64,000 bases of DNA from a candidate division WOR-1 bacterium RIFOXYB2_FULL_45_9 (GTDB lineage: Bacteria > Margulisbacteria > WOR-1 > O2-12-FULL-45-9 > XYB2-FULL-48-7): assembly GCA_001771575.1 (NCBI GenBank), contig MEUD01000001.1:506984-570983 (forward strand). Direction: 5' to 3'. Position 1 is the first letter of the stretch, and every line of letters starts with the position of its first letter. The translations under genes and the position numbers were made by a program. Positions 11,452-45,336 of the stretch are shown one piece after another. Below the pieces are notes generated by a model. It searched no databases. It was not told the DNA's origin and worked only from the letters and a program-made list of their open reading frames with translations.

Positions 11452-11471
11452 GGCAATTCCTTTCCATTCAT

Positions 11472-26423: not shown

Positions 26424-26432
26424 GTTAGCCTC

Positions 26433-27170: not shown

Positions 27171-28159
27171 CGTAAATTCTCCTTCAAAATAATTTCTCCG
27201 GCCGGCAAGTCCAGTTTCAAGGTCCGGCCGATAAGTCCGGTTTCATTCCGATGGAACGGCCGGTCAATCGCTTTGAAATCGATCCGCAGGAACCGAATGT
27301 CTTTCGCCGCTAGTTTTTCGCCCGCTTTCAGGTCGCGTCCGGCAACAGCACAGCGCCGGTATTTTTTCCGGTATTCCTGCTCCAGTTCGCTAAGCGAATA
27401 ATTCGACTTACCCAGGGCGGCGGCGGTCATTTCCAGGTCCGCTTTGAGCTGGTCAAGTTCGGCCGGATCAAAAGCCGATTGCCAATCGTATTTGGTCTTT
27501 AAATCCTTCAGGAAAACGTGTTTTTCTATTGTACACGCCCCTTTCAGTAATGCCAAGCAGGGTAAGGTCCGGGCAAATTGGGTCTCCCGGCCAACGTGGT
27601 CCATATAACCGACCGCGCAGCGATAGCGCTCTTTCAAAAAGGTCAGGCGGTTGAGATTGGCTTCCTCCGCCGGGGTCGGAAAGTTTTGAAAACCGACCAT
27701 CAGACAAACGGTCCGCCCTTTGGCCAGTCTCATGACCCGGTCGATCTCCGGCAGGGTCGCGCCGCCGGTCGAGAGCATCAGCGGCAATTTGGCTTTGACG
27801 ATCTTGGCGATCAGCGCCAGGTTATCGAAATCCATGGCATGGATCTTCACGAAGTCGACCCGGCATTTAAGGGCCAAAGCGAGCGATTCTTCGCCGTAAA
27901 CGTCGAAGGCGACTTTTTTACCGGTCTCTTTCACTTTACCGATCAATTCAACCCAAAGCTCAGTCTTAAATTCCAACTCTTTAAAGATCTGGTACTGGCT
28001 GTGCCGGGCGGAAATAAATTCCGCCGCGATGATCGGCTGGAACTTGACCGCGTCGGCCCGCGACTTAAGCAGTTGGGAAAGCAATTGCCGCAAATACTTT
28101 TCGTCCCCGCCGTGGCAATTGGCGACTTCGGCAATCAGAGAGGGAAATATAAACTTCAT
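27167..28159 (-). CDS. N-acetylneuraminate synthase family (divergent NeuB-like)
   Basis: AEVANCHGG, ADAVKFQ, LSTGG, GYMDH, IEKH, SAF tail. Confidence 0.85.
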   Translation of the reverse strand: MKFIFPSLIAEVANCHGGDEKYLRQLLSQLLKSRADAVKFQPIIAAEFISARHSQYQIFKELEFKTELWVELIGKVKETGKKVAFDVYGEESLALALKCRVDFVKIHAMDFDNLALIAKIVKAKLPLMLSTGGATLPEIDRVMRLAKGRTVCLMVGFQNFPTPAEEANLNRLTFLKERYRCAVGYMDHVGRETQFARTLPCLALLKGACTIEKHVFLKDLKTKYDWQSAFDPAELDQLKADLEMTAAALGKSNYSLSELEQEYRKKYRRCAVAGRDLKAGEKLAAKDIRFLRIDFKAIDRPFHRNETGLIGRTLKLDLPAGEIILKENLR

Positions 28160-29154
28160 AGGTAATTGACCTCACAGCCGACACAGGCGGCAACGTCGTC
28201 ATAACGATGCTTCAAGTGAAGTTCACGGATCGCGTTCAGTTTTGCTCCCCGCCAGATCTCGGCTAACGGCGTTTCCTTAGCGTTGCCGATTGGGCTCCGC
28301 ATGTGGTGGTCACCACAGCACATCAGGACCGTGCCGTCCCAGAGAACGACCATTCTCTGCCAGAGCTGGGAACAAGGAAACCGTTCGCCAAATTTCTGGA
28401 CCCGTCCCTTTTCCCCAACCCGGTTCTCGCCGCTCCGGTAGCGGGAAAAACCGATCCGGTTAACCTTGTTCTCCCAGAACTTAATGTAATCGAGCGCTTC
28501 CTCCTGGTTATCCGCCATATAAACCATCTGGACCTGGACGCTGGGGAGCTTGCGGCCGAGAGAGTTACGGATCTCAATAAATTTCTCGATCTTGGGGATC
28601 GTCTGATCGTAAGTCGTGCCGCGACGGATCGAATTATAAACTTCCGGGGTCACGCCATCGACCGAGAACTTGATCCGGTCGAGCCCCGCTTCGATCAATC
28701 CCCGGGAAAGGTCATCAGTTAAAAGGGCTCCGTTGCTGTTGAACTGGACCTCCAAGACCCCCGCCTCTTTCGCCAGACGGACAAATTCAACGATCTTCGG
28801 ATGCATCAGCGGTTCACCCCGGAAATTAAATTTGACCGACGGCAGGAAGTGCTGCTTAACTTCACTCAAAACTTTTTTGTAGAGCTCAATGTCCATATAG
28901 CCGCTCTCCATCTTGCCGAACGGGATCTGGCACATGGTACAGCGGAGGTTGCAGGTGTTGGATGTTTCCAGGTCGAGATGGAGCGGAAAATCACCGACGA
29001 TATGCTCCCTGGGATTTTTCTGCCAGGCGGCCCGGTAAGCGGCAAATTTCTCCCCCATCAGTTTATTGGCATCCTCGACCCGATCGGTCCCCAGGACCTC
29101 GAAAAAATCAGGGCTAACCCGGTTGATCAGCGACGCGTCAATTTTATCGAGCAT
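28156..29154 (-). CDS. Radical SAM protein with SPASM/twitch domain
   Basis: CNLRCTMC, GEPLMHP; CSQLW...MCCGD...CVGC. Confidence 0.9.
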   Translation of the reverse strand: MLDKIDASLINRVSPDFFEVLGTDRVEDANKLMGEKFAAYRAAWQKNPREHIVGDFPLHLDLETSNTCNLRCTMCQIPFGKMESGYMDIELYKKVLSEVKQHFLPSVKFNFRGEPLMHPKIVEFVRLAKEAGVLEVQFNSNGALLTDDLSRGLIEAGLDRIKFSVDGVTPEVYNSIRRGTTYDQTIPKIEKFIEIRNSLGRKLPSVQVQMVYMADNQEEALDYIKFWENKVNRIGFSRYRSGENRVGEKGRVQKFGERFPCSQLWQRMVVLWDGTVLMCCGDHHMRSPIGNAKETPLAEIWRGAKLNAIRELHLKHRYDDVAACVGCEVNYL

Positions 29155-30817
29155 AACTACTCCTTTTTTCCGTGAACAACATCATTTTTTCCGGCGTGAC
29201 CGCGGCCAGGTAACGTTTAACAAACTCCACCCCTTTTTCGGCCATTTCCAACCGTTGTCCGCCGTCCATGGCCATGATCCAGGCAACTTTGCTCAAAAGC
29301 TCGGACGGGGAAGAAGCTTCGCTCTTCCCCCGAAAGCCAAGCAAAGGATCAAAGCTCAACAGATCATCGAAGCGGAGATGAACGACCGGCCGGCCAAGGG
29401 CTAACGCTTCCAGTCCGACCGCGCTTAGATCATACAATACGACCGCCGCTTCAGTCAGGTCGGTTAGCAGGTCAGAGTTCGAAACAGTGAAAGGGACTTT
29501 TCCTCTCAATGGCGAGGCGGGATGAGGCCGCAGGACAACCTGATAATCGGTCCGCTGGAAAGCCTGGGTTAGCCAGTCGATCATCATCCCCGCTCGCGGC
29601 TGACAGCCAAGGACCGTCAGGACCTTTTTCCCGCTGGGCGGAAGCAGAGCCGTTCCGGTCTTGAAACGGAGAGCACAGCCGACCTTTATCTTATCCCGCT
29701 CGTACCCGCCTTTGTTGATCAGGAAATCGGCGGTCACTTCCCCCAGGGTGATGATCCGGTCAGGGAAGGGGACGATCTTTTGCTCCGCCGGGCCCAGATA
29801 AACATTGGTCAGGGCCGGATAGAGGGCGCTGTGCTGATAACCAATCGTCGCCGCCTTAGCGGCGTATCGTTTGATCGCCAGCAGGGACATTTTTTCCCAG
29901 GGATAATTCTCGTGGGTCAGGATATAACGTTCGACCGCGACTTTTTCCGCCAGCCTCCGGGCGTAATAATAGTAAATCGAGTTGTTCAATGTCTGGCCTT
30001 GTTCATGCTCTTGCCGCAAAGTCGCGTTGAGCAACGCACTTATCTCTTTGCCGTTGAACAGGACCGGCCTTTTAACCTGGATCAGGCCATGGCGATCATC
30101 CAATACCGCCCGTAATGGATCAAAGATTTTCAGGAATGTTTCCTGGGCCAGGAGGGGAGCCGGGTTCTTGGCCATTGCTTTGATCGTCCGCCAATAGTTA
30201 CCAAGCACTCCGCCGACGATCAGCAGGTTATATTCTTTCAAATACTCCGGCAGAGCGCCAAAGTAATCGTCAACAAAGGGACAGCGGACAACGCTCCGCT
30301 CAAGAAGCCAGGTACGTAAAACCGTCACCCCCACCCGATCGAACGTTTTTAATTTGCGCGCCAGATAAAATCTGGCGATCATGGTTTTACCTATTTCTTT
30401 AGCCACAAAAAGCAAGCGATTCTTCAGCCGGACCAGCCAGCTTTTTACCGGCCGGACAAGCCTTGCAAATCGAGCTTCAATTATCGTCACCGGGAGCGAT
30501 CGCTCCCGGCAATAAGCGACCAGCGCCGCGCGCAACGCCCGCGACGGCACGTAAACAATAAATGACTGCCGCCGTTTCAATTCTTCAACGATCTGGTCAA
30601 AACAAACCAGGTCGCTAAAAAAAGCGGAACTGTAATAATCCTTGGAGGCAAGCGGATAGCGCCACCAGGCGTCGGACTGGTAATCGCGGCTCAATTCGCC
30701 GATCAGCTTAACGTACTCGCGCAGGTAGGCTTCGCCGTCAACCCGATTCGCGAGGAAAAGTTCGCCGGTCCCGCCGGGTTTAAGCCGATTAAGGTTATCG
30801 ATGATCGTTAAGCTCAT
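29144..30817 (-). CDS. Surface carbohydrate biosynthesis protein, putative GT-B ulosonate transferase
   Basis: ENYPWEK, IGYQHS, LRPHP, SAVGLEALALGRP. Confidence 0.6.
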   Translation of the reverse strand: MSLTIIDNLNRLKPGGTGELFLANRVDGEAYLREYVKLIGELSRDYQSDAWWRYPLASKDYYSSAFFSDLVCFDQIVEELKRRQSFIVYVPSRALRAALVAYCRERSLPVTIIEARFARLVRPVKSWLVRLKNRLLFVAKEIGKTMIARFYLARKLKTFDRVGVTVLRTWLLERSVVRCPFVDDYFGALPEYLKEYNLLIVGGVLGNYWRTIKAMAKNPAPLLAQETFLKIFDPLRAVLDDRHGLIQVKRPVLFNGKEISALLNATLRQEHEQGQTLNNSIYYYYARRLAEKVAVERYILTHENYPWEKMSLLAIKRYAAKAATIGYQHSALYPALTNVYLGPAEQKIVPFPDRIITLGEVTADFLINKGGYERDKIKVGCALRFKTGTALLPPSGKKVLTVLGCQPRAGMMIDWLTQAFQRTDYQVVLRPHPASPLRGKVPFTVSNSDLLTDLTEAAVVLYDLSAVGLEALALGRPVVHLRFDDLLSFDPLLGFRGKSEASSPSELLSKVAWIMAMDGGQRLEMAEKGVEFVKRYLAAVTPEKMMLFTEKRSSYAR

Positions 30818-32790
30818 TGGCTCCCCTTCACTATTTTATCGCTCCCCCAGGCTTTGGCATATTGCTCGTCAGCGTAAGCCAGCGCTACCTGACGGTCAGC
30901 CCCCTGGTTCAATTTCTCCAATAAGTTTTCCAGATAAGTTGCCATCCGCTTGGCCGCCTGTCCATCCTGAAACGGATCTTTTTCCTTCAAGTTGGGGACT
31001 AAGTCCGCCCGGCCGATCGCCACGCCCGGATCGCGGCGGACCTGGTCGATCGCCGACATTAAGGCTTCGAGGTCGTCAAAAACAAGTGTCCCTTTCCCCC
31101 ACTGATATTCTTCGTATGAATAAAGTTTTTCCAGATCGAGGTAAACGACCCGGGAACCGGCCAGAAAACATTCCAGGGCGGTCGTCCCGCCGAGCAGAAG
31201 CGTGATCGTGATATCGGCCGCCAGCGAGGCTTGGGCCGGATAGCTCTCCGTTCCGTATTCGCCTTCGAGAAAGACACAGCGGCCGGTCGCTTTAGCCTGG
31301 TCAATAAGCTGGGCAATTTCCGGCAACCGCTTAAGGAGAGTTTGTGGACGCTTGGGACTGCAGATCAAGCCAAGGGATTTATCCGCTAAAACGGCGTTAA
31401 GAAGTTTTTTATAGACCTTTAGGCTCCGGTCGTTGGGAATAATGCTCAAGCTGTCGTCAGAGGAATTCTCGTCAAAGTAGCAGATTATAAACTGTGCCCC
31501 TTTAGCTTGCAGTTTTTTTCTTAGTTCGTCCCCTTTAGCCCGTGCGGCAGGAAAAGAGTAATCGGTCGGATAACCGGCAAAGAGGTAACGCCCGCAGCGT
31601 GAACCGACCGCCCGCTGGCGCGTCAGATAATACGGCCCAAAAAGAAATAGGAGATCGGCCCCCGACGCCAGGATCGGGTTGGGGAGCGGCCAATTGGAAT
31701 TCTGGTAACTGACTCCGATCCCGCCATTGGCCGCGATGGCCAGATGCCGGGCGATCCGGTAGGGATCAAAGTCAACGAAGTCGACGTTCACTTTAACCCC
31801 CTGTTGGAGATAAAAATCATGATAACGGGCATATTCGGCAATAAAGCGGAACGACCAGACCAGATAATATAAAGAACGCATCCCGCCGCCATAACGGAGA
31901 TAATAATAGATCGTTTTGATTATAGGCTTACTTTGCCGAATAAAATCGAGCGACGGACGGTAGACCTGAACATCAGCGGTCGCGGCCGCTTTCGCCGTCA
32001 GAGCGGCAGACTTGATCTTACGACTGGCCAATTCCTTGACCATTCCCCCGGTTACCGGCAGATCTTCCCGTTCAAAATAGAGCAGGGATTTTTCGCCCGG
32101 AAATTGCAAAAGCCAGGGAAAATCGGAACGCTTATCGGTCGCGAAGTTAAAGCCCTTTAAAGTGTACAAATTACCAAGCAAGCCATTTCCCGTCGGCCGG
32201 ACCGGTTTTAATTTCAGCAACGCGGCTAACCAGCCTTTAACAAAGCGCCAGATCATAAAGCCAAGTTTCGCTCCCTGGGTAAAAAGATCGGCCAAAGAAT
32301 AACGGCTGACCACTTTGATCCCGTATTTTTTAGCGGCATGATCCGCTAAGGCGGGAACAAATGGCGACCAAGGGAGAAGATAGACAAACGTTCGTTCCTC
32401 CTGCTTTGCCAGCCAGGCCAACGCTTTTAGGACAATGACCTGTCGTTCAAGAAGATTGTTGGCGCTCTTTTTGAAGAAAAGGGCCATTTTCTCCGGTTCG
32501 CCAAAAAGTGCGCCGAACAGTTTCACGAACTCGTTTTGGGCGATCGCTTTTTCCGCTTCATTAACAACACTCAACAGATCCTGCCGATAAACCAGGGGAA
32601 AGGAAGATCCGCCATCATCTTCCATTAGTTCATAGAAATGGAAGGCCAACGGCCGCAAACGACCTTCCAGCTTCAAAACTTTAATTAATTTCCGCCCCAG
32701 GCTGGTCGCGCGGAAGTATCTTCCCTTCCCCCTGGAGCAGGCAAAAGCGAGTACCTCCCAGCTATTTAGCTGATAATAGCAACTGTTCAA
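30814..32790 (-). CDS. Large hypothetical polysaccharide biosynthesis protein, putative transferase
   Basis: 658 aa; C-terminal TTALEC and DPFQDGQAAKR resemble a GT-B tail. Confidence 0.55.
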   Translation of the reverse strand: MNSCYYQLNSWEVLAFACSRGKGRYFRATSLGRKLIKVLKLEGRLRPLAFHFYELMEDDGGSSFPLVYRQDLLSVVNEAEKAIAQNEFVKLFGALFGEPEKMALFFKKSANNLLERQVIVLKALAWLAKQEERTFVYLLPWSPFVPALADHAAKKYGIKVVSRYSLADLFTQGAKLGFMIWRFVKGWLAALLKLKPVRPTGNGLLGNLYTLKGFNFATDKRSDFPWLLQFPGEKSLLYFEREDLPVTGGMVKELASRKIKSAALTAKAAATADVQVYRPSLDFIRQSKPIIKTIYYYLRYGGGMRSLYYLVWSFRFIAEYARYHDFYLQQGVKVNVDFVDFDPYRIARHLAIAANGGIGVSYQNSNWPLPNPILASGADLLFLFGPYYLTRQRAVGSRCGRYLFAGYPTDYSFPAARAKGDELRKKLQAKGAQFIICYFDENSSDDSLSIIPNDRSLKVYKKLLNAVLADKSLGLICSPKRPQTLLKRLPEIAQLIDQAKATGRCVFLEGEYGTESYPAQASLAADITITLLLGGTTALECFLAGSRVVYLDLEKLYSYEEYQWGKGTLVFDDLEALMSAIDQVRRDPGVAIGRADLVPNLKEKDPFQDGQAAKRMATYLENLLEKLNQGADRQVALAYADEQYAKAWGSDKIVKGSQ

Positions 32791-33569
32791 TGGCTTTTAT
32801 CCTTGGCAAATAATTGGATTGTATTATTAATGTAAACGTCTTTCTCTTCGTATGGAAATGGAAATTCCCTGCACCCTTCAGAAAAGAGCTTGCTCATTAC
32901 CAGTTTTAACCCGGCCCGCTCGAAAAGCTTTTTAAAATCGCGCGGATAAGCGAAGAGACTTCCTTCGTTTTCCAGGATCAGGACCATTTTTTTGCTCACT
33001 CTGGCTATTTCCCGGAAAATATAATTATATTTTGGATGGATATTGACCAGGACCGAATGGCAAAAGACCAGGTCATATTCGGCGGTCGGGATCTTTCTAA
33101 TTTCCAGCGGGGCGCTGCCGACGATCAACCTGCTATCCCCGGCCATTTCCGGAAAAACCGTTTGGGACATTTCAACCGCTTTGGGACCGATCTCTATCCC
33201 GGTGAGATTCTTAAAACCAAGCTTATGGAGATAATTGAGGGACCGCCCAACGTTACAGCCGAGTTCCAGGATCTTGCTCTCTTTATTGAGATACGGCAGA
33301 ACTTCTTTAAATAGTTCAACCAGAGAACTGTCTTCCTTAATATATGTCTCCGGCCGGTCGGCGCTCCCTTCGGTCCCCTGTCTCTGCCAGCGTTTTGCCA
33401 GATCCGAAGAAGCCAGCGGCGGTTGGAGCCCCAGCCCACCCAAGATAGCCGCCAGCCTTAAATATTGATATTTCAGGTAACGGTTGTTCAAGACCAATTG
33501 ACTGGCCCGATATTGTAATTTCAACGCTAAAGCGGAAACGATTCTTTTTAATGTTTTCAAGATCAACAT
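32787..33569 (-). CDS. Class I SAM-dependent methyltransferase
   Basis: ILELGCNVG, GIEI, YDLVF; SD AAGGAG before ATG 33569. Confidence 0.85.
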   Translation of the reverse strand: MLILKTLKRIVSALALKLQYRASQLVLNNRYLKYQYLRLAAILGGLGLQPPLASSDLAKRWQRQGTEGSADRPETYIKEDSSLVELFKEVLPYLNKESKILELGCNVGRSLNYLHKLGFKNLTGIEIGPKAVEMSQTVFPEMAGDSRLIVGSAPLEIRKIPTAEYDLVFCHSVLVNIHPKYNYIFREIARVSKKMVLILENEGSLFAYPRDFKKLFERAGLKLVMSKLFSEGCREFPFPYEEKDVYINNTIQLFAKDKSH

Positions 33570-33576
33570 ACTCCTT

Positions 33577-34335
33577 TTACCAGGCGCTCCAGCCGCCATC
33601 GACGCTTAAAACTTCGCCGGTTACGTAATCGGACATCGAAGAAGCCAGGTACAAACAGGCATTGGCAACGTCGCCGGCGCTCCCCCACTTCTTCTGCGGC
33701 GTCCGGTCCAAAGTGAACTGGTACAGATCTTTATTCTGCTTAAAATTGTCAGCATAGGAGGTTTCGCAAAAACCGGGAGCAATGACGTTAACATTAATGC
33801 TATGCCCCGCCCATTCGACCGCCAAACACTTGGTCAACGTAATGATCCCTCCCTTTGAAGCGCCGTAAGCGGAAAGATCGGGGAGCCCCAAAGTCCCAAT
33901 AATCGAGGCCAGATTAATAATCTTCCCGGCTTTTTGCTTAACCATAAGACGTCCAACCTCTCGGCACATCAGATAAACAGTGCCGAGGTTGGTGTTAATG
34001 ACCTTCTGCCACTCTTCGGTCCCGATCTCCAGGAACGGTTTGCGAAATCGGATCCCGGCATTATTGACCAGGACGTCAAAACGGCCGAACATGGCCAACG
34101 CCTGGCCAATAAAATCGACGACGATTTTCTCCTCCGAAACGTCGCCGGCATAGGTCAAAACCCGGTCGTCGGCAAAGCCCTCTGCCTTTTTCAAACCGGC
34201 CAGATCGGCCGGATCGCGGGAGATCAGGGCAAGCTTGGCCCCCTCCCGGTAAAAAAGCTTCGCCGTTTCCAGGCCAATCCCTTTCCCCGCTCCGGTAATG
34301 ACGCAAACCTTATCCTTCAATATTTCTTTTTCCAT
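33577..34335 (-). CDS. Classical SDR oxidoreductase (gluconate 5-dehydrogenase-like)
   Basis: TGAGKGIG, NNAG, YGASK, VDGG. Confidence 0.9.
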   Translation of the reverse strand: MEKEILKDKVCVITGAGKGIGLETAKLFYREGAKLALISRDPADLAGLKKAEGFADDRVLTYAGDVSEEKIVVDFIGQALAMFGRFDVLVNNAGIRFRKPFLEIGTEEWQKVINTNLGTVYLMCREVGRLMVKQKAGKIINLASIIGTLGLPDLSAYGASKGGIITLTKCLAVEWAGHSINVNVIAPGFCETSYADNFKQNKDLYQFTLDRTPQKKWGSAGDVANACLYLASSMSDYVTGEVLSVDGGWSAW

Positions 34336-34344
34336 ATTTCACTC

Positions 34345-35472
34345 CTATATAATGGTCGCTTGGAACGCTTGCTCGATCAGGGCGAAAGGCACGTCATTAT
34401 AAACGGTGCTCCGACCGATCTCCTTGACCAAAACCATTCTGATCGCGTGATCTTTTCGTTTCTTGTCTTTCTTGACGTTGCGGAGACACTCTTTGATCAA
34501 CACTCCACGATCAAAGCCGATCTTGGTTGAATCGACGGAGACCGGAAGCTGGTATTGCTCAAAAATCCTTTGCTGAGCCGCGGCCGTTTCGTCCGTAAGC
34601 CCCAAATGGTTCCGGGCAATGAACACCGCCGCCATGATCCCCAACGCGACCCCCTCGCCATGCCGATAAGTATCCCCTTTTTCGGTCACGGTGGATACTT
34701 CGATCGCGTGGCCAAGTGTGTGCCCGTAATTAAGTTTTAGCCGGGCTCCCCCTTCATGGACATCGCCGGTCACGTGCTCGATCTTGATCTCGATCGATCG
34801 CTCGATCACCTTCAGCAGATCCGCTTCCTCTTTTTTCAGGATCGCGACCCGCCGGCCCAAAAGAAACTGGAAGAAATTGGCGTCCGCGATGATCGCGCAT
34901 TTGATCGCCTCGGCCAGACCGGCCCGGTAATCGCGAAGCGGCAAAGCGTCGATAAAATCAAGATCGATCAGGTTAATGATCGGATGGTAATAACTGCCGA
35001 TCGCGTTGATCGTTTTACGAAAGTTAATGGCGACCTTCCCGCCCAAACTGCTGTCGATCATCGCCATCAGGGTCGTCGGGACATGGACCAGATTAATCCC
35101 GCGCAAATATGTACTGGCAACAAAGCCCCCCAGATCGCCGACCACTCCGCCGCCAACCGCGATCAGCGTCGAATCGCGGGAAAAGTCCTGGCTTTCCAGG
35201 AGACCGTAGATCTTGAGCGCTTCGTTGATATTCTTGTTGACCTTCCCTCCCTCGAGCGGATGGAGAAGGACGCGGAAACCGGCGGCCCGCAGGCTGGCGG
35301 CCAGTTTGTCATTGATTGAGGCTTCGAAATAATTATCGTAAACGATCAAAACGTCGCGATTCCTGGTCCGCTCGGCCAGCAACCCGGCCAGCTCGGTAAG
35401 GGTCCCCCGCCCGATCAGGAGCGGGTAACTCGACCGGTCAAAAACGACTTCTTTTTTAATCAATATGCTCAT
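34345..35472 (-). CDS. 3-dehydroquinate synthase-like sugar-phosphate cyclase
   Basis: GGGVVGD, YLRG, VPTTL, DSSLGGK, AEAIK, LNYGHTLGHAIE, HGEGV, DKK. Confidence 0.88.
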   Translation of the reverse strand: MSILIKKEVVFDRSSYPLLIGRGTLTELAGLLAERTRNRDVLIVYDNYFEASINDKLAASLRAAGFRVLLHPLEGGKVNKNINEALKIYGLLESQDFSRDSTLIAVGGGVVGDLGGFVASTYLRGINLVHVPTTLMAMIDSSLGGKVAINFRKTINAIGSYYHPIINLIDLDFIDALPLRDYRAGLAEAIKCAIIADANFFQFLLGRRVAILKKEEADLLKVIERSIEIKIEHVTGDVHEGGARLKLNYGHTLGHAIEVSTVTEKGDTYRHGEGVALGIMAAVFIARNHLGLTDETAAAQQRIFEQYQLPVSVDSTKIGFDRGVLIKECLRNVKKDKKRKDHAIRMVLVKEIGRSTVYNDVPFALIEQAFQATII

Positions 35473-36137
35473 TTTAGTGGTTGGAAAAAGCCGGCATTTA
35501 CCATCAGCTCGGCAATCTCAAAATCTTCCGGCGTGTCTATGTCGTGCCCCTCAAAATGATCGATGTTCTTGATGTAAGGCTTATCACCGATCCGGCGGTG
35601 GCGGCTCTGAAACAGATCCCGCCGAAAGACGTACAGGGACGATTGTTCGATCACGACCGGATCGATGTCCTGGGTCCGCGGCGTAGGCAGGTCAAGTGAA
35701 TAATTAAGCGGCTTTCCCCTGAACCAGGCAAATTTCTTGAAAGCGTAAGCGGTAAAAGCGGAATCGTGCTCGCCGGAGACCACCTTGTCGATACATTCGG
35801 CGATCGTCGCCGGCTTAAGGAACGGCGAAGTGATGTGGAGTAAAACAATAATGTCGGCATCGGATAATTTCAGGAACTCACCGATGATATCCTGGATCGT
35901 CGCGGTCTGGGTATCGAGCGACTTCGGCCGTTCGAGAAAAGTATACTTCAAGTCGGCCTCGATGTGCTTCGTAATGCTCGGCTCTGAAGCAAATAAGACC
36001 AGATCGTTTAAGGCTTTTACCTTGTTCAGCGCCCGCAGGGAATAGTTGATCAGCGGCACCCCCCCCAGCAGTTTGACGTTCTTGGACGGGACCCGTTCAC
36101 TGTTCAATCGTGATGGGACAAAGGCGACGATTTTCAT
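35469..36137 (-). CDS. Acylneuraminate cytidylyltransferase family
   Basis: SERVPSKN, TSPF, PRTQD, DIDTPEDF. Confidence 0.88.
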   Translation of the reverse strand: MKIVAFVPSRLNSERVPSKNVKLLGGVPLINYSLRALNKVKALNDLVLFASEPSITKHIEADLKYTFLERPKSLDTQTATIQDIIGEFLKLSDADIIVLLHITSPFLKPATIAECIDKVVSGEHDSAFTAYAFKKFAWFRGKPLNYSLDLPTPRTQDIDPVVIEQSSLYVFRRDLFQSRHRRIGDKPYIKNIDHFEGHDIDTPEDFEIAELMVNAGFFQPLK

Positions 36138-37999
36138 AAAACTCCTTTGCCGCTAAGCGCGGACTTCACATATTTGTACAAATTAGCTTCGTAATTATCA
36201 TTGTATTTATAATTTAAAAAGTTAAGGTCCTTTTTAAAGCCCCGGATCGCGTTAGCCAGCTGATCGGCTTGATCGACATAAACAACCGGCTGGTCGATCA
36301 AGCCGCCCCGATAAACCGGCAATTTAAAATGGTTATAGCGGGCCCACTTGTCAAAAAGAATGACCGGCCGTTCATTGAGGAGCGCTTCGTCCAGGGCGGT
36401 CGAAGAGTAACTGACCAGGATATCGGTCGCCGCCAGAACGGCAGCAAATGGGCCCTGACGATTAATAGTGTACTTCTCTGAAGGCGGCAATAACAATTTA
36501 AATTCCTCGTCGCTCAATTCAAAACCGGGATGAACCCGGATAATCAGTCTTGTATTTGGCAACTGGTCGATGGTTCTAACCAAGTCAGCCAAGCTGGCAA
36601 TAAATTCATCAAGCGTCTCCAGAAAATAAAACCGCTCCGTTCCTCTCTTCTTTGAAGTCACGGCGTGAGTAACGATCGTCTCGTCGGCTGAAAACCCGAT
36701 TTTAAACTTAGCGGTCCGCTTCTCGACCCCGTTAAGATCGGCAAAAACGACCGGACCGGTCTTCAATTCGTTCGCTTTTACCCAGGGATATTTCTTAAAA
36801 TACTTCAGGTGAGCTTCCTGGACTGGGGTAGCAAGCGCGACATCGGTATATTCGCTCAACATAAATCCGCGGCATAACTCGACCAGCTCCATTTCGTGGA
36901 CTTCATCGATCGGGACCGGATGCGCACCGTGCGAAACAAAAAGCGACTTGATCCCAACCTGGCGGGAGAGCTCTCCCGCGCCATACCAAAACCCGCGAGA
37001 GAACGGTGAAACGACCAATTTTATTTCCAGACTTTTAACCATACTTTTCAGGGCCGATAGCTGGCCGCTATGCTCGGTAAAATATGGAGCTAGAGCGCCG
37101 ACGGCCTTCTTTTCAATGATCGGAGCCAACGCTACTCCTTTATAATTAAAAGCTACTGTGCCCCGGAAAACAGCGGTTAATTTCTCCCGTAAAATGTCCT
37201 CGTTTGCTTCGCTTCCCTTAAAGTCCAGCCAAAAATGTCGGTTGGCGACGCCAAAGAGGAAAAGCGCCAGATATTTTATCGGCGACCTGACTAATTTCTC
37301 CGGACAGGGAGAAAGAAACGCCACTCCGGGAACCGCCTTGAAAAGTTTTTCTTTCAGTCCGGCAAACCCGTACCCATTCCCCGGGATCAGGACCAATTTT
37401 TTTCTAAAGAACAAGAGATACGCCTTGAGCAAGCAGATCATTAACCAATTGAACCTTGAAGCTTTCTTTTTGCGCTTAGAGACGTTTGATTTTTGCCCGA
37501 CGGCAATATCGATAAACTTCAACGAATGGTTGGCTGCGTAAGTCTTAACTAAGGCTCCTAAATATCGGTCCACCGGTATAATCATCGGGTTCCCAGAGTG
37601 TGGTTCGGCGACCGCGGCATAAAGTTCGACCGGCCCGGCCCGGCGGACGCAATTATCGATAATCTCTATCAGACTCATTAAATGAAAAAGATAGAACCGA
37701 ACGTAAAACTGCAGGTCGGTCAGATATACCGAGGATAAACCGCTAGGATCGGTATATTGAAAGGTCTCATTGATCCGCTCGACCGCCTTCTGGGCACTGA
37801 TGATCATTGCCCGATGAGAATCATTATTAAAATAAGGAAGAGAATTATGGTAGTCGACACCAAACTTCTTTAGATAAGCCTGCAGTTTCGGTTCCAGGGC
37901 AATAATATTAAAAGCGCTTAAAGCCTCGCCCCGCTTCTTAACCTGCCGGCAAAAAGCTTCGTACTCGTCAATAAATTCCAAAAAAACCAGTTTTTTCAT
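36134..37999 (-). CDS. Large hypothetical, putative GT-B transferase for a CMP/CDP-activated donor
   Basis: VSHG, IRVHP, SSTALDEALLNERP. Confidence 0.55.
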   Translation of the reverse strand: MKKLVFLEFIDEYEAFCRQVKKRGEALSAFNIIALEPKLQAYLKKFGVDYHNSLPYFNNDSHRAMIISAQKAVERINETFQYTDPSGLSSVYLTDLQFYVRFYLFHLMSLIEIIDNCVRRAGPVELYAAVAEPHSGNPMIIPVDRYLGALVKTYAANHSLKFIDIAVGQKSNVSKRKKKASRFNWLMICLLKAYLLFFRKKLVLIPGNGYGFAGLKEKLFKAVPGVAFLSPCPEKLVRSPIKYLALFLFGVANRHFWLDFKGSEANEDILREKLTAVFRGTVAFNYKGVALAPIIEKKAVGALAPYFTEHSGQLSALKSMVKSLEIKLVVSPFSRGFWYGAGELSRQVGIKSLFVSHGAHPVPIDEVHEMELVELCRGFMLSEYTDVALATPVQEAHLKYFKKYPWVKANELKTGPVVFADLNGVEKRTAKFKIGFSADETIVTHAVTSKKRGTERFYFLETLDEFIASLADLVRTIDQLPNTRLIIRVHPGFELSDEEFKLLLPPSEKYTINRQGPFAAVLAATDILVSYSSTALDEALLNERPVILFDKWARYNHFKLPVYRGGLIDQPVVYVDQADQLANAIRGFKKDLNFLNYKYNDNYEANLYKYVKSALSGKGVL

Positions 38000-38904
38000 G
38001 CCTGGGCGATCGCTAAAAGCGCGTCACTCCTCCCTTTTCTTTCCAATAACTCGCGGTAGTAGTCGTCGACAGCCGCGTAATCCCTGTTGATTTCAAAGAC
38101 CGGCCGCTCGATCTGCGGCTTCCCGTAAAGGAGCCAGTTGCTTAGGTTGAGGAGCCCGTAGCGCTGGGCGTAAACCAGTTTGATCTTCTTAAAGCCTGCC
38201 GCCGTAAAAGCCCGTTTCAACGTTTGGCCGCTAAAGTAATTCAAGTGGGCCCTGATCCAATAAAAATCGTGATACTCCCTGGAGTTCGCCAGCAACTGGT
38301 CGGATACATTTGGGACCTCGCAGATGAATGTCCCTTTAGGTTTGAGCAGGGTTTTGATCTGCTTAAGAAAGGCGATCGGATCGGTCGTATGTTCAAGGAC
38401 GTGAAAAAGCGTCGCGACATCATACCGGCCGATAATTTCCGCTCCGGCGGCGACGTCGTGTTCCAGGATCTGCGCCGGCGTGTGCGCCTGGGCGATCGTC
38501 CGGCGTTCCCGCGAGATCTCAATCCCTTTGACCCTTTTAAAACCGGCGTCATGCAAAGCGGCGACAAAGAAGCCGTAACCGGCCCCTATATCCAGGACCG
38601 AAACTTTCCTGGGGAATAGTTTTCTGATCAGCGCGACATGGCGATCGGTGTCAAAGCGCTGGTTAGCCGCCAGCTTTTCGTAATCGATCTCTTTGCCGCG
38701 GTTCTTATCCTGCTGGTTTTGATCGTAAAATTCCTTATCATCCTCCGCGGTCGGCTTTGGGAGCAACTGGACGTGACCGCACTGTTGGCAGTCATAAACC
38801 TTGAACTTGGCCTGGTCGTCACGGAGGAAAGATTTGACCAGTTTAAATTTCCCGCCGCCGCAAAGATTACACCGGCTCAATTGTTTGTTCGGCAACTTTA
38901 CCAC
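37996..38904 (-). CDS. Class I SAM-dependent methyltransferase with N-terminal Zn ribbon
   Basis: CNLC..CQQC, LDIGAGYG, FHVLEH, EVPN. Confidence 0.88.
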   Translation of the reverse strand: MVKLPNKQLSRCNLCGGGKFKLVKSFLRDDQAKFKVYDCQQCGHVQLLPKPTAEDDKEFYDQNQQDKNRGKEIDYEKLAANQRFDTDRHVALIRKLFPRKVSVLDIGAGYGFFVAALHDAGFKRVKGIEISRERRTIAQAHTPAQILEHDVAAGAEIIGRYDVATLFHVLEHTTDPIAFLKQIKTLLKPKGTFICEVPNVSDQLLANSREYHDFYWIRAHLNYFSGQTLKRAFTAAGFKKIKLVYAQRYGLLNLSNWLLYGKPQIERPVFEINRDYAAVDDYYRELLERKGRSDALLAIAQA

Positions 38905-40354
38905 CTCTTTTAAACATTTTCATAAGCATCTCAAAACGATGCCGGCGAACTATTCCGGCCTGATAACCGATGAACAGAAAAACACCAAAAAACGCCAGTT
39001 TGATCGGCATCAGCAACAAGAACGGATAATCGATCATTTGCAAATAGAGGATCGAGGAGGAGGCGCCGTAAACCAGCGCGTAAAGAGGGAATATATGTCC
39101 CCATTCATAATCAACTTTGTAAAGGCGCTGGCCAATAACCGCCAAAGTAAAGTTCAATACCAAATAGCTGGTCAGAAACGACAGGGCTCCTCCGATCAGC
39201 CCAAACCTTGGGATCAAAACAATATTAGCCGCGACGTTTGCCAAGGTCCCCAAGATCGTGATCGGAAAGATCAAATACGCTTTCTTGGTATAAGCATATT
39301 GCAGACCGACAAAAACCCCGAATATATTGCTGGCATAGGCGCAAGCAATTATAATAATTACCGGGATCGCGGAGTAATAAGAAGGGGGAGCCATTATCAT
39401 GATGATCTCCCGGGCAAATATAACCGCCATCATAACCGGGACCATGGTCAGGTATAAAAAAACCGTGAACAATCGACCGACCGGCCTTGCCGCGGCGGCC
39501 CCTTTATCAAACACCTCGCGATAAAAAACCGGCTGGAACGAATTCCAAACCGCGCTAATTAAATTAAAAATTATCACCCCGATGTTCTGGCCGATATTAT
39601 AAATACCGACCGCGGAAAGCGAAAGCATGTTATTTAACAGATACTTATCAAAGAACCTGTTAACAAAGCCGGTCAATACTTTTGGGACTAATTGCAGTCC
39701 AAAAAGCAGGTTCTCTCCTAAAATACGTAAATTTATCTTGAAAGAAAAACCTGAATTAAAGATCAGCGCGATAACGATCGTCAGAAAAAAGTTAACGGTC
39801 AAGGTGCTAAGCAACGGCCCCATATATGACATTTTTAAGATCCCAACATAAAAAAGATTCAGCAAACTGATCAGAGTGTTCTGAACAATCATTACAACCG
39901 CGAAAAGCTTTGCTTTCTCCATTCCCTGCAAGATCGTCAAATAAAAGGTGATAATATAAGCAAAATAAACTCCCAAATAAGCGGCCAGGACAGCGTGGCC
40001 ATAGCCGGACTGTCCAATAATCAATCTGGAAATATCATCCTTAAGAAAAAATACCGCAATTGAGCTGACCGACAGCATAAAGTATAAAAATACTTGCGAA
40101 GAAACGACCAGGCCATCAAGCCTTTCTTTATCCAGGCGGTATTGGAAATAATTCCGCTGGGTGGCGCTCACCAGACCAAAGGTCAGGAGCCCGACCGCGA
40201 TCGCCGGAAAAAGATTGGCCATGATGATGATCCCGTAATCGGCCGGCCGCAGGAGCCTGGTCATGATCGGCATGGTGATCAGGCTCAAGGCGTAACCCAC
40301 AAAATTGGGGGCAGTGTAAATAATGATGTTTCGAATGTTTTTTTCTTTAAGCAA
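38867..40354 (-). CDS. wzx: Oligosaccharide flippase
   Basis: TRLLRPADYG, DKYLL, VGIY, LIPRFGLIG; 12-14 TM. Confidence 0.85.
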   Translation of the reverse strand: MLKEKNIRNIIIYTAPNFVGYALSLITMPIMTRLLRPADYGIIIMANLFPAIAVGLLTFGLVSATQRNYFQYRLDKERLDGLVVSSQVFLYFMLSVSSIAVFFLKDDISRLIIGQSGYGHAVLAAYLGVYFAYIITFYLTILQGMEKAKLFAVVMIVQNTLISLLNLFYVGILKMSYMGPLLSTLTVNFFLTIVIALIFNSGFSFKINLRILGENLLFGLQLVPKVLTGFVNRFFDKYLLNNMLSLSAVGIYNIGQNIGVIIFNLISAVWNSFQPVFYREVFDKGAAAARPVGRLFTVFLYLTMVPVMMAVIFAREIIMIMAPPSYYSAIPVIIIIACAYASNIFGVFVGLQYAYTKKAYLIFPITILGTLANVAANIVLIPRFGLIGGALSFLTSYLVLNFTLAVIGQRLYKVDYEWGHIFPLYALVYGASSSILYLQMIDYPFLLLMPIKLAFFGVFLFIGYQAGIVRRHRFEMLMKMFKRGGKVAEQTIEPV

Positions 40355-44451: not shown

Positions 44452-44461
44452 TGGTTCGCTC

Positions 44462-45334: not shown

Positions 45335-45336
45335 AT

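What the first reader, a model, noticed from the sequence alone, without database searches (positions are those of the whole stretch)
32787..38904. Dehydroquinate-synthase-like cyclase coupled to a cytidylyltransferase, SDR, transferase and methyltransferases: candidate CMP-carbasugar pathway
Seen: directly after wzx, a tightly coupled run MTase-transferase-NeuA-like-DHQS-like-SDR-MTase. No other aro gene is in the window. The cyclase keeps the NAD/metal motifs (GGGVVGD, AEAIK, LNYGHTLGHAIE, HGE), which is the DHQS-type Asn rather than the DOIS/EEVS acidic residue. However, the usual KN(L/M)IG motif reads TINAIG, having lost the Lys. Established: DHQS cyclises a PEP-derived 3-deoxy-ulosonate phosphate (DAHP), and its homologs make the cyclitols of aminoglycosides and valienamine. 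Inference: a ulosonate phosphate (DAHP or a product of a divergent NeuB) is cyclised, reduced by the SDR to a quinate-like carbocycle, CMP-activated and built into the surface polymer. This would be an undescribed carbocyclic glycan residue pathway.
Basis: partly seen in the sequence, partly recalled or inferred. Interest (0 to 1): 0.82.

Follow-up and report, generated by a model that had tools for sequence, protein, structure and literature searches.

The report
Glycan-locus AroB paralogue with CMP-transferase
A second, specialised copy of the shikimate-pathway enzyme dehydroquinate synthase sits with a reductase and a sialic-acid-type CMP-activating enzyme inside a huge surface-sugar gene cluster, and most likely diverts an aromatic amino acid precursor into an undescribed building block of the cell-surface polymer.

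Summary
On the minus strand, wzx is followed by tightly coupled genes for a methyltransferase, a 621-aa GT-B transferase, a NeuA-like cytidylyltransferase (CT222), an AroB-like protein, an SDR and a second methyltransferase. All sit in a ~50 kb Pse/Leg-type polysaccharide locus.

- The genome has a separate housekeeping aroB next to aroK.
- The glycan-locus copy belongs to its own clade (at least 51% identity inside it, at most 39% to other AroBs; SH-aLRT 98-99).
- The CT/AroB-like/SDR set recurs in all 10 contexts of that clade, across several phyla and one virus-classified contig.

New evidence:
- CT222 and the paralogue occur in exactly the same 6 of 146 genomes of the phylum, whereas PseI occurs in 34.
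- On the virus-classified contig the CT domain is fused to a type I-beta DAHP synthase (7 protein clusters).
- Two divergent CT-linked AroB-like genes join the same branch.

Every DHQS catalytic residue is kept. So DAHP is very probably drawn into a CMP-activated C7 acid. No paper on this was found. Interest is high.

The parts
38867..40354 (-). Wzx-type flippase, first gene of the conserved block
   Evidence: Polysacc_synt 64.8 bits. An ortholog precedes MT302-TF621-CT222 in L003, L122, L120, L005 and L008.
37996..38904 (-). MT302, class I SAM methyltransferase
   Evidence: Methyltransf_23 100 bits. Overlaps TF621 by 4 nt. Conserved upstream of TF621 in L003, L122, L120 and L008.
36134..37999 (-). 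TF621, GT-B transferase of the LIC12162 / TagF / KpsC-S-like kind; candidate transferase for the CMP-activated product
   Evidence: Weak matches to Glyphos_transf, BFO_1060 and TIGR04396 in the C-terminal part. Atlas neighbours carry PF27859 LIC12162, PF04464 and PF05159. No PDB sequence match. Lies directly upstream of CT222 in L003, L004, L005, L008, L120 and L122.
35469..36137 (-). CT222, NeuA-like CTP_transf_3 cytidylyltransferase bound to the paralogue
   Evidence: CTP_transf_3 66.6 bits; PseF 75 bits against a 205.7 cut-off. Best PDB relatives are CMP-sialic acid synthetases aligned over the full length. Overlaps the DHQS gene by 4 nt. Found in the same 6 of 146 genomes as the paralogue. 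Its domain is fused to DAHP synthase in L128.
34345..35472 (-). Glycan-locus AroB paralogue (DHQS-type sugar-phosphate cyclase, protein P0001)
   Evidence: TIGR01357 307.9 bits against a 305 cut-off. Housekeeping aroB lies elsewhere. All DHQS catalytic positions are invariant. Separate clade, SH-aLRT 98-99.
33577..34335 (-). SDR252, classical SDR ketoreductase always directly downstream of the paralogue
   Evidence: adh_short_C2 208 bits. FabG, gluconate 5-DH and KduD-like. An ortholog at 60-86% identity follows the paralogue in all 9 other contexts.
32787..33599 (-). MT270, methyltransferase (Pse-associated methylase-like)
   Evidence: TIGR03587 58 bits against a 112 cut-off. Follows the SDR in L003, L122, L120 and L005; elsewhere in the locus in L008.
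30814..32790 (-). TF658, paralogue of TF621 (second GT-B transferase)
   Evidence: TIGR04396 17 bits only. Conserved in L003, L122, L120, L004, L005 and L008.

Best explanation
The gene is a specialised, horizontally mobile paralogue of 3-dehydroquinate synthase. It works with the SDR next to it and a NeuA-type cytidylyltransferase as one cassette.

Proposed path:
1. DAHP comes from the cell's own DAHP synthase, or from a DAHP synthase fused to the cytidylyltransferase in some carriers.
2. The paralogue takes DAHP and performs the DHQS chemistry: NAD-dependent oxidation at C5, loss of the 7-phosphate, and re-reduction.
3. Ring opening and aldol closure then most likely follow, giving 3-dehydroquinate.
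4. The SDR reduces the remaining ketone to a quinate-like 1-hydroxy-1-carboxy cyclohexane, which is the carba-analogue of a 3-deoxy-2-ulosonic acid.
5. CT222 joins it to CMP.
6. The product is used by the LIC12162/TagF/KpsC-like transferases and methyltransferases of the locus to decorate a Wzx-exported, nonulosonic-acid-rich polysaccharide.

Shown here: the gene set, its strict coupling, its separate clade, and the link to DAHP synthase. Inferred: substrate, order of steps, cyclisation, what the SDR reduces, the CMP linkage and the transfer.

My odds: about 0.6 that the cassette makes a CMP-activated DAHP-derived C7 acid. Within that, about 0.35 overall that the acid is carbocyclic.
For: 1. 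Second copy. G000 has aroB at 131989-133038 (382.5 bits) directly after aroK, plus the window copy (307.6 bits). The same pattern of two copies holds in G001, G002 and G004.

2. Separate clade. Identity to P0001 is at least 51% for clade members and at most 39% for the 101 other DHQS-like ORFs of at least 300 aligned residues. In a 78-row tree the 29 clade rows are one side of a branch, SH-aLRT 99. In a 131-row tree the figure is 98 for 30 rows.

3. Chemistry kept. P0001 residues R124, D140, K146, N156, E188, K191, K230, R244, N248, H251, H255, H271 and K338 are invariant in 20 clade members plus the housekeeping AroB. They map onto the DHQS substrate, metal and phosphate residues; that list is recalled from the A. 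nidulans structure papers and comes from no call. The nearest solved relatives are DHQS (192 bits), not ValA (109), BtrC (102) or DDGS (82).

4. Coupling. The SDR lies directly downstream in 10 of 10 clade contexts: the window, L003, L004, L005, L006, L007, L008, L120, L122 and L128. A CT222-type CT lies directly upstream in 8 of 10. In L128 the CT is fused to DAHPS two genes downstream. In L007 a KdsB-type CT follows the SDR. A CT lies within 3 kb in 8 of 8 clade loci against 2 of 97 others.

5. Co-occurrence. The paralogue is in 6 of 146 genomes of the phylum. CT222 orthologs (76-100% identity) are in the same 6 and in no other. PseI above cut-off is in 34 of 146, of which only 4 carry the module. 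Two module carriers (G111, G140) lack a PseI above cut-off. So CT222 is not the general PseF.

6. Rosetta stone. L128 12498-13994 is one 498-aa ORF. Residues 1-222 are 26-30% identical to the CT222 ortholog in the window and in each of the 8 paralogue loci that carry one; L007, which has no CT222-type gene, gave no hit. Residues 233-495 score 286 bits to T. maritima DAHP synthase, against about 76 bits to KDO8P synthase. The same architecture (PF02348 plus PF00793) is found in 7 clusters of 498-507 aa from several sources.

7. Older link. Two divergent DHQS-like genes are also CT-linked: L054 (SDR, KdsB-like CT, DHQS-like, overlapping genes) and L057 (KdsB-like CT overlapping DHQS-like). They join the clade on one branch, SH-aLRT 99.3, against 99 other AroBs.

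8. In L054 the next gene is a radical SAM protein whose only PDB match is BtrN, which I recall as a cyclitol dehydrogenase. The match is 28 bits and is a lead only.
Against: - No chemistry was tested. The product is inferred from residues and neighbours.
- A CMP ester of a tertiary carbocyclic alcohol lacks the ring oxygen that supports glycosyl transfer. Synthetic CMP-quinic acid is cited as a basis for sialyltransferase inhibitors (reference list only). How TF621 could use such a donor is therefore unexplained.
- DHQS-like sequence does not fix the substrate. A published tree notes that confirmed 2-epi-valiolone synthases would be taken for DHQS by phylogeny (passages of PMC5133447).
- G003, a 0.7 Mb genome binned as Zambryskibacteria, has the paralogue, the SDR and a KdsB-like CT. 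It has no match to DAHP synthase class I or II, NeuB, HpcH aldolase or chorismate synthase. Its completeness is not given and the contig could be misbinned.
- In Margulisiibacteriota, Omnitrophota and L005 the module always lies among NeuB-family genes, so a role tied to a nonulosonic acid is not excluded.
- KdsB-like neighbours may only reflect Kdo as a co-component. L120 has true KdsA plus KdsB in the same operon.
- L054 and L057 are long, AT-rich branches, so their placement could be long-branch attraction.
- Several contexts are kin: the window, L003 and L122 are one genus.
Confidence: 0.55

Rival explanations
1. Same cassette and same substrate, but no carbocycle. The paralogue removes the 7-phosphate of DAHP by the DHQS oxidation/elimination/reduction steps and releases 3,7-dideoxy-hepto-2,6-diulosonate instead of closing the ring. 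The SDR reduces the 6-ketone. The result is a 3,7-dideoxy-heptulosonic acid, a small 7-deoxy cousin of Kdo and pseudaminic acid. It is a normal substrate for NeuA/KdsB-type enzymes and a normal CMP donor for GT-B ulosonic-acid transferases.
For: - It explains the CT types (NeuA-like CT222; KdsB-like in L006, L007, L054 and L057) and the KpsC/TagF/LIC12162-like transferases without unusual transfer chemistry.
- SDR252 scores about as well to 2-dehydro-3-deoxygluconate 5-dehydrogenase and gluconate 5-dehydrogenase models as to FabG.
- It parallels synthase, phosphate removal and CT in the CMP-Kdo route (established knowledge, recalled).
- Clade-specific substitutions lie next to catalytic residues: TIN for GKN, YYHP for FYQP, IKC for IKY, and His233.
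Against: - All residues of DHQS, including those credited with the later steps, are invariant.
- By recalled mechanistic work, the enol-pyranose left after phosphate loss cyclises to dehydroquinate on its own. Avoiding closure would therefore need an extra protonation step for which there is no evidence.
- I know of no such sugar in a glycan (recall; not searched by that name).
Confidence: 0.22
2. CT222 is a specialised CMP-synthetase for a modified pseudaminic or legionaminic-type acid. The paralogue and SDR make a DAHP-derived substituent or acceptor (for example a quinate-like group) that ends up on, or next to, that nonulosonic acid. They do not make the CT's own substrate.
For: - CT222 aligns over its full length with CMP-sialic acid synthetases and PseF.
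- The block pseB-pseC-B12 rSAM-GFO-CT296-aminotransferase...pseI...CT222-DHQS-SDR is conserved between the window and an Omnitrophota genome.
- MT270 resembles the Pse-associated methylase.
- NeuB-family genes lie within about 16 kb in all Margulisiibacteriota contexts.
Against: - 30 of 34 PseI-bearing genomes of the phylum lack CT222 and the paralogue, and 2 module carriers lack a PseI above cut-off.
- L128 holds DHQS, SDR and CT-DAHPS with no NeuB-type synthase found in the 17 kb held. The only NeuB-query match there is the DAHPS domain itself.
- L007's genome has no NeuB match.
- No ligase or acyl-activating gene is part of the conserved set.
- The window has 4 CTP_transf_3 genes for 3 NeuB-type synthases, so one CT is spare.
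Confidence: 0.12
3. The paralogue is a cyclase for another sugar phosphate, such as sedoheptulose 7-phosphate (as in 2-epi-valiolone synthase). It makes a C7 cyclitol that is reduced and nucleotide-activated.
For: - Confirmed EVS enzymes fall among DHQS-like sequences (passages of PMC5133447).
- G003 has the module but no DAHP synthase match.
- The radical SAM neighbour in L054 has BtrN as its only PDB match, at 28 bits.
Against: - The CT-DAHP synthase fusion lies beside the paralogue.
- The DHQS-type Asn and all other DHQS positions are kept.
- PDB scores are much higher to DHQS than to ValA, BtrC or DDGS.
- No EEVS, DDGS or DOIS family appeared among the 8 NCBIfam matches.
- NeuA- and KdsB-type CTs act on alpha-hydroxy or keto acids (recalled).
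Confidence: 0.07
4. It is merely a redundant or differently regulated aroB isozyme that happens to lie in the glycan locus and feeds aromatic amino acid synthesis.
For: It scores just above the aroB equivalog cut-off (307.9 against 305), keeps all catalytic residues, and is named 3-dehydroquinate synthase by the sources.
Against: - Translational coupling to CT222.
- Conserved neighbours across phyla.
- A separate clade with patchy spread: 6 of 146 in its own phylum, and 0 of 400 in each of two other phylum samples besides the known carrier.
- It is present in a genome with no chorismate synthase match.
Confidence: 0.02

Closest known systems
3-dehydroquinate synthase AroB (TIGR01357; PF01761 plus PF24621)
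   Same: Same fold family. Score just above the equivalog cut-off. All metal, NAD-side, phosphate and substrate residues are conserved. DAHP is probably the substrate.
   Different: It is a second copy outside any aro context. It forms its own clade at 29-39% identity to ordinary AroBs. It has clade signatures (FRKTINAIGxYYHP, IKC, KIxHVxGD) and a 10-residue deletion relative to the housekeeping copy. It is always joined to an SDR and a CTP_transf_3 enzyme.
Secondary-metabolism sugar phosphate cyclases (aminoDHQ synthase, EVS, EEVS, DDGS, DOIS, EboD)
   Same: DHQS homologues recruited outside the shikimate pathway, followed by tailoring enzymes. The superfamily is described in passages of PMC4426668 and PMC5133447.
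   Different: Those feed antibiotics, sunscreens or unknown lipids, not CMP-transferases in polysaccharide loci. PDB scores to ValA, BtrC and DDGS are 82-109 bits against 192 for DHQS. No reference sequences of these classes were in my trees.
CMP-Kdo and CMP-nonulosonic acid routes (KdsA-KdsC-KdsB; PseI-PseF; NeuB-NeuA)
   Same: A PEP-condensing synthase of the DAHPS/KDO8PS family, a step that removes the phosphate, a CTP_transf_3 enzyme, then GT-B transferases, all in a surface glycan locus.
   Different: The phosphate is removed by a DHQS-type lyase/cyclase rather than a phosphatase, and a ketoreductase is added. The product has 7 carbons and may be carbocyclic. CT222 fails the PseF cut-off (75 against 205.7 bits) and does not track PseI.
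Synthetic CMP-quinic acid (Schaub, Mueller, Schmidt 1998)
   Different: I know it only as a man-made basis for sialyltransferase inhibitors; I saw only the title in a reference list. That speaks against its use as a donor. No natural occurrence was found in my searches.
Pseudo-glycosyltransfer of carbasugars (validamycin VldE with GDP-valienol), recalled and not tested here
   Same: A nucleotide-activated carbocycle is joined to an acceptor by a glycosyltransferase-fold enzyme.
   Different: That donor is an NDP ester of an unsaturated cyclitol, which gives allylic help. Here the donor would be a CMP ester of a saturated tertiary alcohol next to a carboxylate.

Membership tests
3-dehydroquinate synthase (AroB, shikimate pathway) | Matches the aroB equivalog model above its curated cut-off | tested here: met
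   TIGR01357 307.9 bits against a 305 cut-off. This is marginal; the housekeeping copy scores 382.5.
3-dehydroquinate synthase (AroB, shikimate pathway) | Zn ligands and the DAHP/phosphate-binding residues are present | tested here: met
   R124, D140, K146, N156, E188, K191, K230, R244, N248, H251, H255, H271 and K338 are invariant in A1. The reference list of residues is recalled, not taken from a call.
3-dehydroquinate synthase (AroB, shikimate pathway) | Orthology with housekeeping AroB (groups with them; serves the aro pathway of the genome) | tested here: not met
   Separate branch, SH-aLRT 98-99. Housekeeping aroB follows aroK elsewhere. It is present in G003, which has no chorismate synthase match.
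3-dehydroquinate synthase (AroB, shikimate pathway) | Converts DAHP to 3-dehydroquinate | not testable with these tools
   Indirect support only: a DAHP synthase fused to the partner CT in L128 and 7 clusters.
   Asn248 is invariant in 21 of 21 sequences.
SH7P / G6P cyclases (EEVS, DDGS, DOIS) | Closer in sequence to these than to DHQS | tested here: not met
   PDB scores: DHQS 132-192 bits, ValA 109, BtrC 102, DDGS 82. None of these families was among the NCBIfam matches. EVS-type enzymes cannot be excluded this way.
Pseudaminic acid cytidylyltransferase PseF (for CT222) | Matches TIGR03584 above its cut-off | tested here: not met
   75.1 bits against 205.7, although aligned over the full length.
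Pseudaminic acid cytidylyltransferase PseF (for CT222) | Distribution follows PseI | tested here: not met
   PseI is in 34 of 146 genomes and CT222 in 6 of 146. Only 4 genomes have both, and 2 have CT222 without a PseI above cut-off.
CMP-ulosonic acid cassette (synthase, dephosphorylation, CTP_transf_3, GT-B transferase) | CTP_transf_3 enzyme and ulosonic-acid-type GT-B transferase encoded together | tested here: met
   CT222 lies next to TF621, of the LIC12162 / Glyphos_transf / Capsule_synth-like kind.
CMP-ulosonic acid cassette (synthase, dephosphorylation, CTP_transf_3, GT-B transferase) | Dedicated PEP-condensing synthase in the cassette | tested here: inconclusive
   Present as a CT-DAHPS fusion in L128 and 7 clusters. 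It is absent from the window module, where the genome's single DAHPS lies at 18.5 kb.
CMP-ulosonic acid cassette (synthase, dephosphorylation, CTP_transf_3, GT-B transferase) | Activated unit is a 2-ulosonic acid with a ring oxygen | not testable with these tools
   This depends on whether the paralogue closes the carbocycle. Quinate and 3,7-dideoxy-heptulosonate are isomers.

The most novel reading that the evidence does not exclude
Bacteria of many phyla, and at least one virus-classified element, make a natural CMP-activated carbocyclic 'pseudo-ulosonic acid': a quinate-type ring made from DAHP by a dedicated AroB paralogue and an SDR. LIC12162/TagF-like transferases then install it in surface polysaccharides. 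This would be the first carbasugar residue delivered through a CMP donor, and it would need a new kind of transfer chemistry at a tertiary carbon.
Probability: 0.3. Interest if true: 0.92.

Novelty: new variant of a known kind. Interest (0 to 1): 0.8.

Why it matters
If right, this is an undescribed branch point. The first committed intermediate of aromatic amino acid synthesis would be diverted into a nucleotide-activated building block of cell-surface glycans, using the shikimate enzyme's own chemistry in place of the phosphatase of the Kdo and sialic acid routes.

It matters for four reasons:
- It would add a new C7 acid, possibly a carbocycle, to the repertoire of bacterial surface sugars.
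- It would correct the automatic name '3-dehydroquinate synthase' for the members of this clade. The 119 relatives listed share 51-93% identity with P0001, and 24 of them carry a source name that includes '3-dehydroquinate synthase'.
- It gives a clear marker trio for genome mining.
- It offers a natural source of CMP-quinate-like molecules, whose synthetic counterpart is used as a basis for sialyltransferase inhibitors.

It is directly testable with three purified enzymes and commercially accessible substrates.

Tried and rejected
Leads that gave nothing
- The metagenome-contig scan with alignment A2 used generic DHQS motifs.
- Sampling 400 further genomes of the phylum of G003 and 400 of the phylum of G002 with the A2 profile found no further carrier. 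I write 'not found in those searched'.
- The GenBank phage collection holds no close relative of the L128 paralogue: 15 records, all at most 36% identity.
- TF621 has no PDB sequence match, nor do the L128 218-aa and L054 447-aa proteins.
- Five literature searches found nothing on this association: dehydroquinate synthase with pseudaminic acid; with cytidylyltransferase and legionaminic; with CMP-Kdo; dehydroquinate with nonulosonic; and CMP-quinic acid. Subscription papers and supplements are not covered.
- A search for the DHQS residue names found nothing. The three papers that hold the active-site fingerprints (PMC3127856, PMC4095911, PMC3405187) are not held. The residue list and the EEVS/DOIS differences therefore rest on recall.

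Ideas considered and dropped
- Kdo 8-phosphate or a nonulosonate 9-phosphate as substrate. The phosphate would not be beta to the carbonyl that the enzyme makes (reasoning only).
- The KdsB-like neighbour as proof of a Kdo-like product. This is weakened because L120 carries true KdsA plus KdsB, and G002 and G004 have housekeeping KdsB as well.
- neuB330 as the source of the substrate. It is not conserved with the module.

Not done
- No structure prediction, complex prediction, read mapping or RNA search was run. None would have settled the chemistry.
- The viral nature of L128 was not verified. The only signs are 29% GC and viral neighbours of one protein in the Atlas.
- My a priori label 'housekeeping' wrongly included L057, which later proved to be CT-linked.
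- The 49 'housekeeping' rows were 4 chosen rows plus 45 drawn at random from 97. One search used all 131 rows. That is every DHQS-like ORF kept (alignments of 300 residues or more), plus the window protein, 20 proteins and the L128 paralogue, which I added by hand. The DHQS-like genes of L129-L131 were not in any tree.

Full report
WHAT IS THERE

All genes of the finding lie on the minus strand:
- wzx 38867-40354
- methyltransferase MT302 37996-38904
- 621-aa transferase TF621 36134-37999
- cytidylyltransferase CT222 35469-36137
- AroB-like protein (P0001) 34345-35472
- short-chain dehydrogenase SDR252 33577-34335
- methyltransferase MT270 32787-33599
- TF658 30814-32790

Four of the junctions are 4-nt overlaps, so the run is translationally coupled. 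Pfam and NCBIfam confirm each assignment.

The window as a whole is one large polysaccharide locus:
- a Wza-like exporter and Wzz at 51-53 kb;
- pseB, pseC, a B12 radical SAM enzyme, a GFO oxidoreductase, CT296, an aminotransferase, two GNATs and pseI upstream;
- TF557, a radical SAM/SPASM enzyme, a divergent NeuB (neuB330), CT245, a LegI-like NeuB, legB, CT234 and many glycosyltransferases and NDP-sugar enzymes downstream.

There are 4 CTP_transf_3 genes for 3 NeuB-type synthases.

IS IT THE HOUSEKEEPING aroB?

No. The genome (1.67 Mb, one contig, 98% complete) has a second match to the aroB model at 131989-133038. It scores 382.5 bits against 307.6 for the window copy. That gene follows aroK directly and reads GKNLIG where the window copy reads TINAIG.

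DAHP synthase (one copy, 350-aa frame) and chorismate synthase lie elsewhere. Three other carriers (G001, G002, G004) also have an ordinary aroB plus the glycan-locus copy.

A SEPARATE CLADE

- The protein search returned 119 relatives at 51-93% identity, from sources naming Margulisiibacteriota, Saganbacteria, Sulfurovum, Oceanicoccus, Ignavibacteriae and Deltaproteobacteria. 24 of them carry a source name that includes '3-dehydroquinate synthase'; the rest carry none or only coordinates.
- Among 109 DHQS-like ORFs taken from fetched loci there is a gap: 8 at 51-91% identity, then nothing above 39%.
- In a 78-row maximum-likelihood tree the 29 clade rows are one side of a branch with SH-aLRT 99.
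- In a 131-row tree, with every row I held, the support is 98 for 30 rows.

Within the clade, branch lengths are short although the hosts span phyla. Distribution is patchy: 6 of 146 genomes of the window's phylum, and none of 400 further genomes in each of two other phyla that hold a carrier. This pattern fits an accessory gene moved horizontally.

CHEMISTRY KEPT

In an alignment of 20 clade members plus the housekeeping AroB, these positions of P0001 are invariant: R124, D140, K146, N156, E188, K191, K230, R244, N248, H251, H255, H271, K338. By my recollection of the A. nidulans DHQS structures they correspond to R130, D146, K152, N162, E194, K197, K250, R264, N268, H271, H275, H287 and K356. 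I could not fetch the papers that list these.

Other clade signatures are YYHP, IKC, KIxHVxGD and a 10-residue deletion.

The nearest solved structures are DHQS (up to 192 bits). ValA, BtrC and DDGS score 109, 102 and 82. One caveat: a published superfamily tree notes that confirmed 2-epi-valiolone synthases would pass for DHQS.

THE MODULE RECURS

I examined 10 contexts of the clade:
- the window;
- L003 and L122 (same genus);
- L004, L120 and L005 (same phylum);
- L008 (Omnitrophota);
- L006 (Bermanella);
- L007 (binned as Zambryskibacteria);
- L128 (an IMG/VR contig).

The SDR ortholog (60-86% identity) is directly downstream in 10 of 10. A CT222-type gene is directly upstream in 8 of 10.

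L007 instead has a KdsB-like cytidylyltransferase after the SDR (280 bits to NF003952). L006 has both kinds.

Across 105 loci, a CTP_transf_3 gene lies within 3 kb of the DHQS-like gene in 8 of 8 clade loci and in 2 of 97 others.

TF621 orthologs precede CT222 in 6 contexts. TF621 is a GT-B protein whose Atlas neighbours carry LIC12162, Glyphos_transf and Capsule_synth domains.

WHOSE CYTIDYLYLTRANSFERASE IS CT222?

Its best solved relatives are CMP-sialic acid synthetases over the full length, and it aligns end to end with PseF at 75 bits against a 205.7 cut-off. It could therefore have been the PseF of the neighbouring pse genes. Its distribution says otherwise:
- CT222 orthologs occur in exactly the 6 genomes that have the paralogue and in none of the other 140.
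- PseI above cut-off occurs in 34 of the 146 genomes.
- Only 4 genomes have both.
- Two carriers of the module have no PseI above cut-off.

THE DAHP LINK

On L128 the order is paralogue (53% identity), SDR (61%), a 218-aa protein, then one 498-aa ORF.
- Residues 1-222 of that ORF match the CT222 ortholog in the window and in each of the 8 paralogue loci that carry one, at 26-30% identity. L007, which has no CT222-type gene, gave no hit.
- Residues 233-495 match type I-beta DAHP synthases at 286 bits, covering the whole catalytic barrel of the T. maritima enzyme. KDO8P synthases reach about 76 bits.

The same two-domain architecture is recorded for 7 protein clusters of 498-507 aa from several data sources. 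The next-best hits are ordinary DAHP synthases of Marinimicrobia, 64-68% identical to the C-terminal half.

A fusion of the pathway's CT with the enzyme that makes DAHP, beside the paralogue and the SDR, is the strongest evidence here that DAHP is the entry substrate and that the CT belongs to the same pathway.

One further lead: the fusion cluster P0124 and the clade member P0082, which is the nearest relative of the L128 paralogue at 72%, have longest contigs of the same length, 280,140 bases.

AN OLDER LINK

The two non-clade loci with a nearby CT are divergent relatives.
- L054 has SDR, KdsB-like CT and a DHQS-like gene as overlapping genes, followed by a radical SAM protein whose only PDB match is BtrN at 28 bits.
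- L057 has a KdsB-like CT overlapping a DHQS-like gene in which the His255 position is Gln.

In the 131-row tree these two join the clade on one branch, SH-aLRT 99.3, against 99 other AroBs. Both are long, AT-rich branches, so attraction is possible.

WHAT IT MOST LIKELY DOES

DAHP is taken by the paralogue, and the retained residues argue for the full DHQS reaction. The SDR then reduces the ketone that remains. The CT makes a CMP ester. The GT-B transferases and methyltransferases of the block use or finish the product for a Wzx-exported polymer.

Quinate is a close carba-analogue of a 3-deoxy-2-ulosonic acid, which fits NeuA/KdsB-type enzymes.

The weak point is the last step. A CMP ester of a tertiary carbocyclic alcohol has no ring oxygen to assist transfer, and synthetic CMP-quinic acid is cited as a basis for sialyltransferase inhibitors.

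The main rival keeps everything but the ring closure. A 3,7-dideoxy-heptulosonate would be an ordinary CMP donor. The two products are isomers, so only NMR or aroB complementation will tell them apart.

EVIDENCE AGAINST, AND LIMITS

- G003 (0.7 Mb) has the paralogue, SDR and a KdsB-like CT but no match to DAHP synthase class I or II, NeuB, HpcH aldolase or chorismate synthase. Either the substrate differs there, it is imported, or the bin is incomplete or mixed.
- KdsB-like neighbours may only mean that Kdo is a co-component. L120 has KdsA and KdsB in the operon. G004 has a second KdsB-like gene in a separate sub-cluster 13 kb away.
- In most contexts the module sits among NeuB-family genes, so a role tied to a nonulosonic acid cannot be excluded.
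- My trees lack characterised non-DHQS cyclases and an outgroup.
- Several contexts are kin.

COMPARISON AND NOVELTY

The enzyme passes the sequence tests for AroB but fails orthology and pathway context. It is best described as a new clade of DHQS-type enzymes recruited to glycan synthesis.

The cassette works like a CMP-Kdo or CMP-nonulosonate route in which the phosphatase is replaced by a DHQS-type step plus a reductase.

Five full-text searches found no description of it. Subscription journals and supplements were not searchable.

I rate it a new variant of a known kind, with a 0.3 chance of the much bolder reading, a natural CMP-carbasugar built into a glycan.

Noticed in passing
window 43150-47819; L127 4433-9087: A four-gene insert sits between pseC and the rest of the pse genes: a B12-binding radical SAM enzyme, a GFO/IDH/MocA oxidoreductase, the 296-aa CTP_transf_3 protein and a GSA-aminomutase-like aminotransferase. 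It is conserved at 54-66% identity in an Omnitrophota genome. It suggests a modified pseudaminic-type acid; its function is unknown.
   Followed up: partly
window 25362-29154: The block radical SAM/SPASM (332 aa), divergent NeuB (330 aa; 134 bits to NeuB against a 400 cut-off), CT245 and a LegI-like NeuB is conserved in L003, L004, L005 and L122. It may encode a third, unusual ulosonic acid route involving a radical SAM step.
   Followed up: partly
L126 5654-10887 (G004 contig C120): About 13 kb from the module in the Omnitrophota genome lies this sub-cluster: SIS isomerase, transaldolase/FSA-like aldolase, HpcH/HpaI aldolase, HAD hydrolase, two SDRs, a second KdsB-like cytidylyltransferase and a D-2-hydroxyacid dehydrogenase. 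It looks like a KdsA-independent, pyruvate-aldolase route to a CMP-activated keto-deoxy acid.
   Followed up: no
L126 13724-17662: The same locus carries a pyruvate kinase barrel fused to a PUA domain and ATP sulfurylase (737 aa), an APS kinase and a sulfotransferase. This points to a sulfated glycan and an odd PK-sulfurylase fusion.
   Followed up: no
L054 2506-6236; L057 2-1745: A second, divergent lineage of CT-linked DHQS-like genes (32-38% identity to P0001). It is paired with KdsB-like cytidylyltransferases. In L057 a Gln replaces the His255 position. In L054 the next gene is a radical SAM enzyme whose only PDB match is BtrN.
   Followed up: partly
L128 9989-13994 (IMG/VR contig, 29% GC): A compact cassette on a virus-classified contig: paralogue, SDR, a 218-aa protein and the CT-DAHPS fusion. 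The Atlas neighbours of the 218-aa protein are mostly viral, with a weak MptE/Maf-like signal in 13% of members. The viral origin was not verified.
   Followed up: partly
L007 / genome G003: A 0.7 Mb genome binned as Zambryskibacteria carries the paralogue, the SDR and a KdsB-like CT next to Wzm/Wzt and an O-antigen-ligase-like TPR protein. It has no match to DAHP synthase, NeuB or chorismate synthase.
   Followed up: partly
window 9292-11559: A 755-aa ORF combines zinc-type alcohol dehydrogenase domains with a GFO/IDH/MocA oxidoreductase. A second radical SAM/SPASM gene lies at 12711-13733.
   Followed up: no
L129, L130, L131: Three giant-virus metagenome bins (GVMAG) encode DHQS-like proteins at 31-32% identity to P0001. 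Their contexts were not examined.
   Followed up: no
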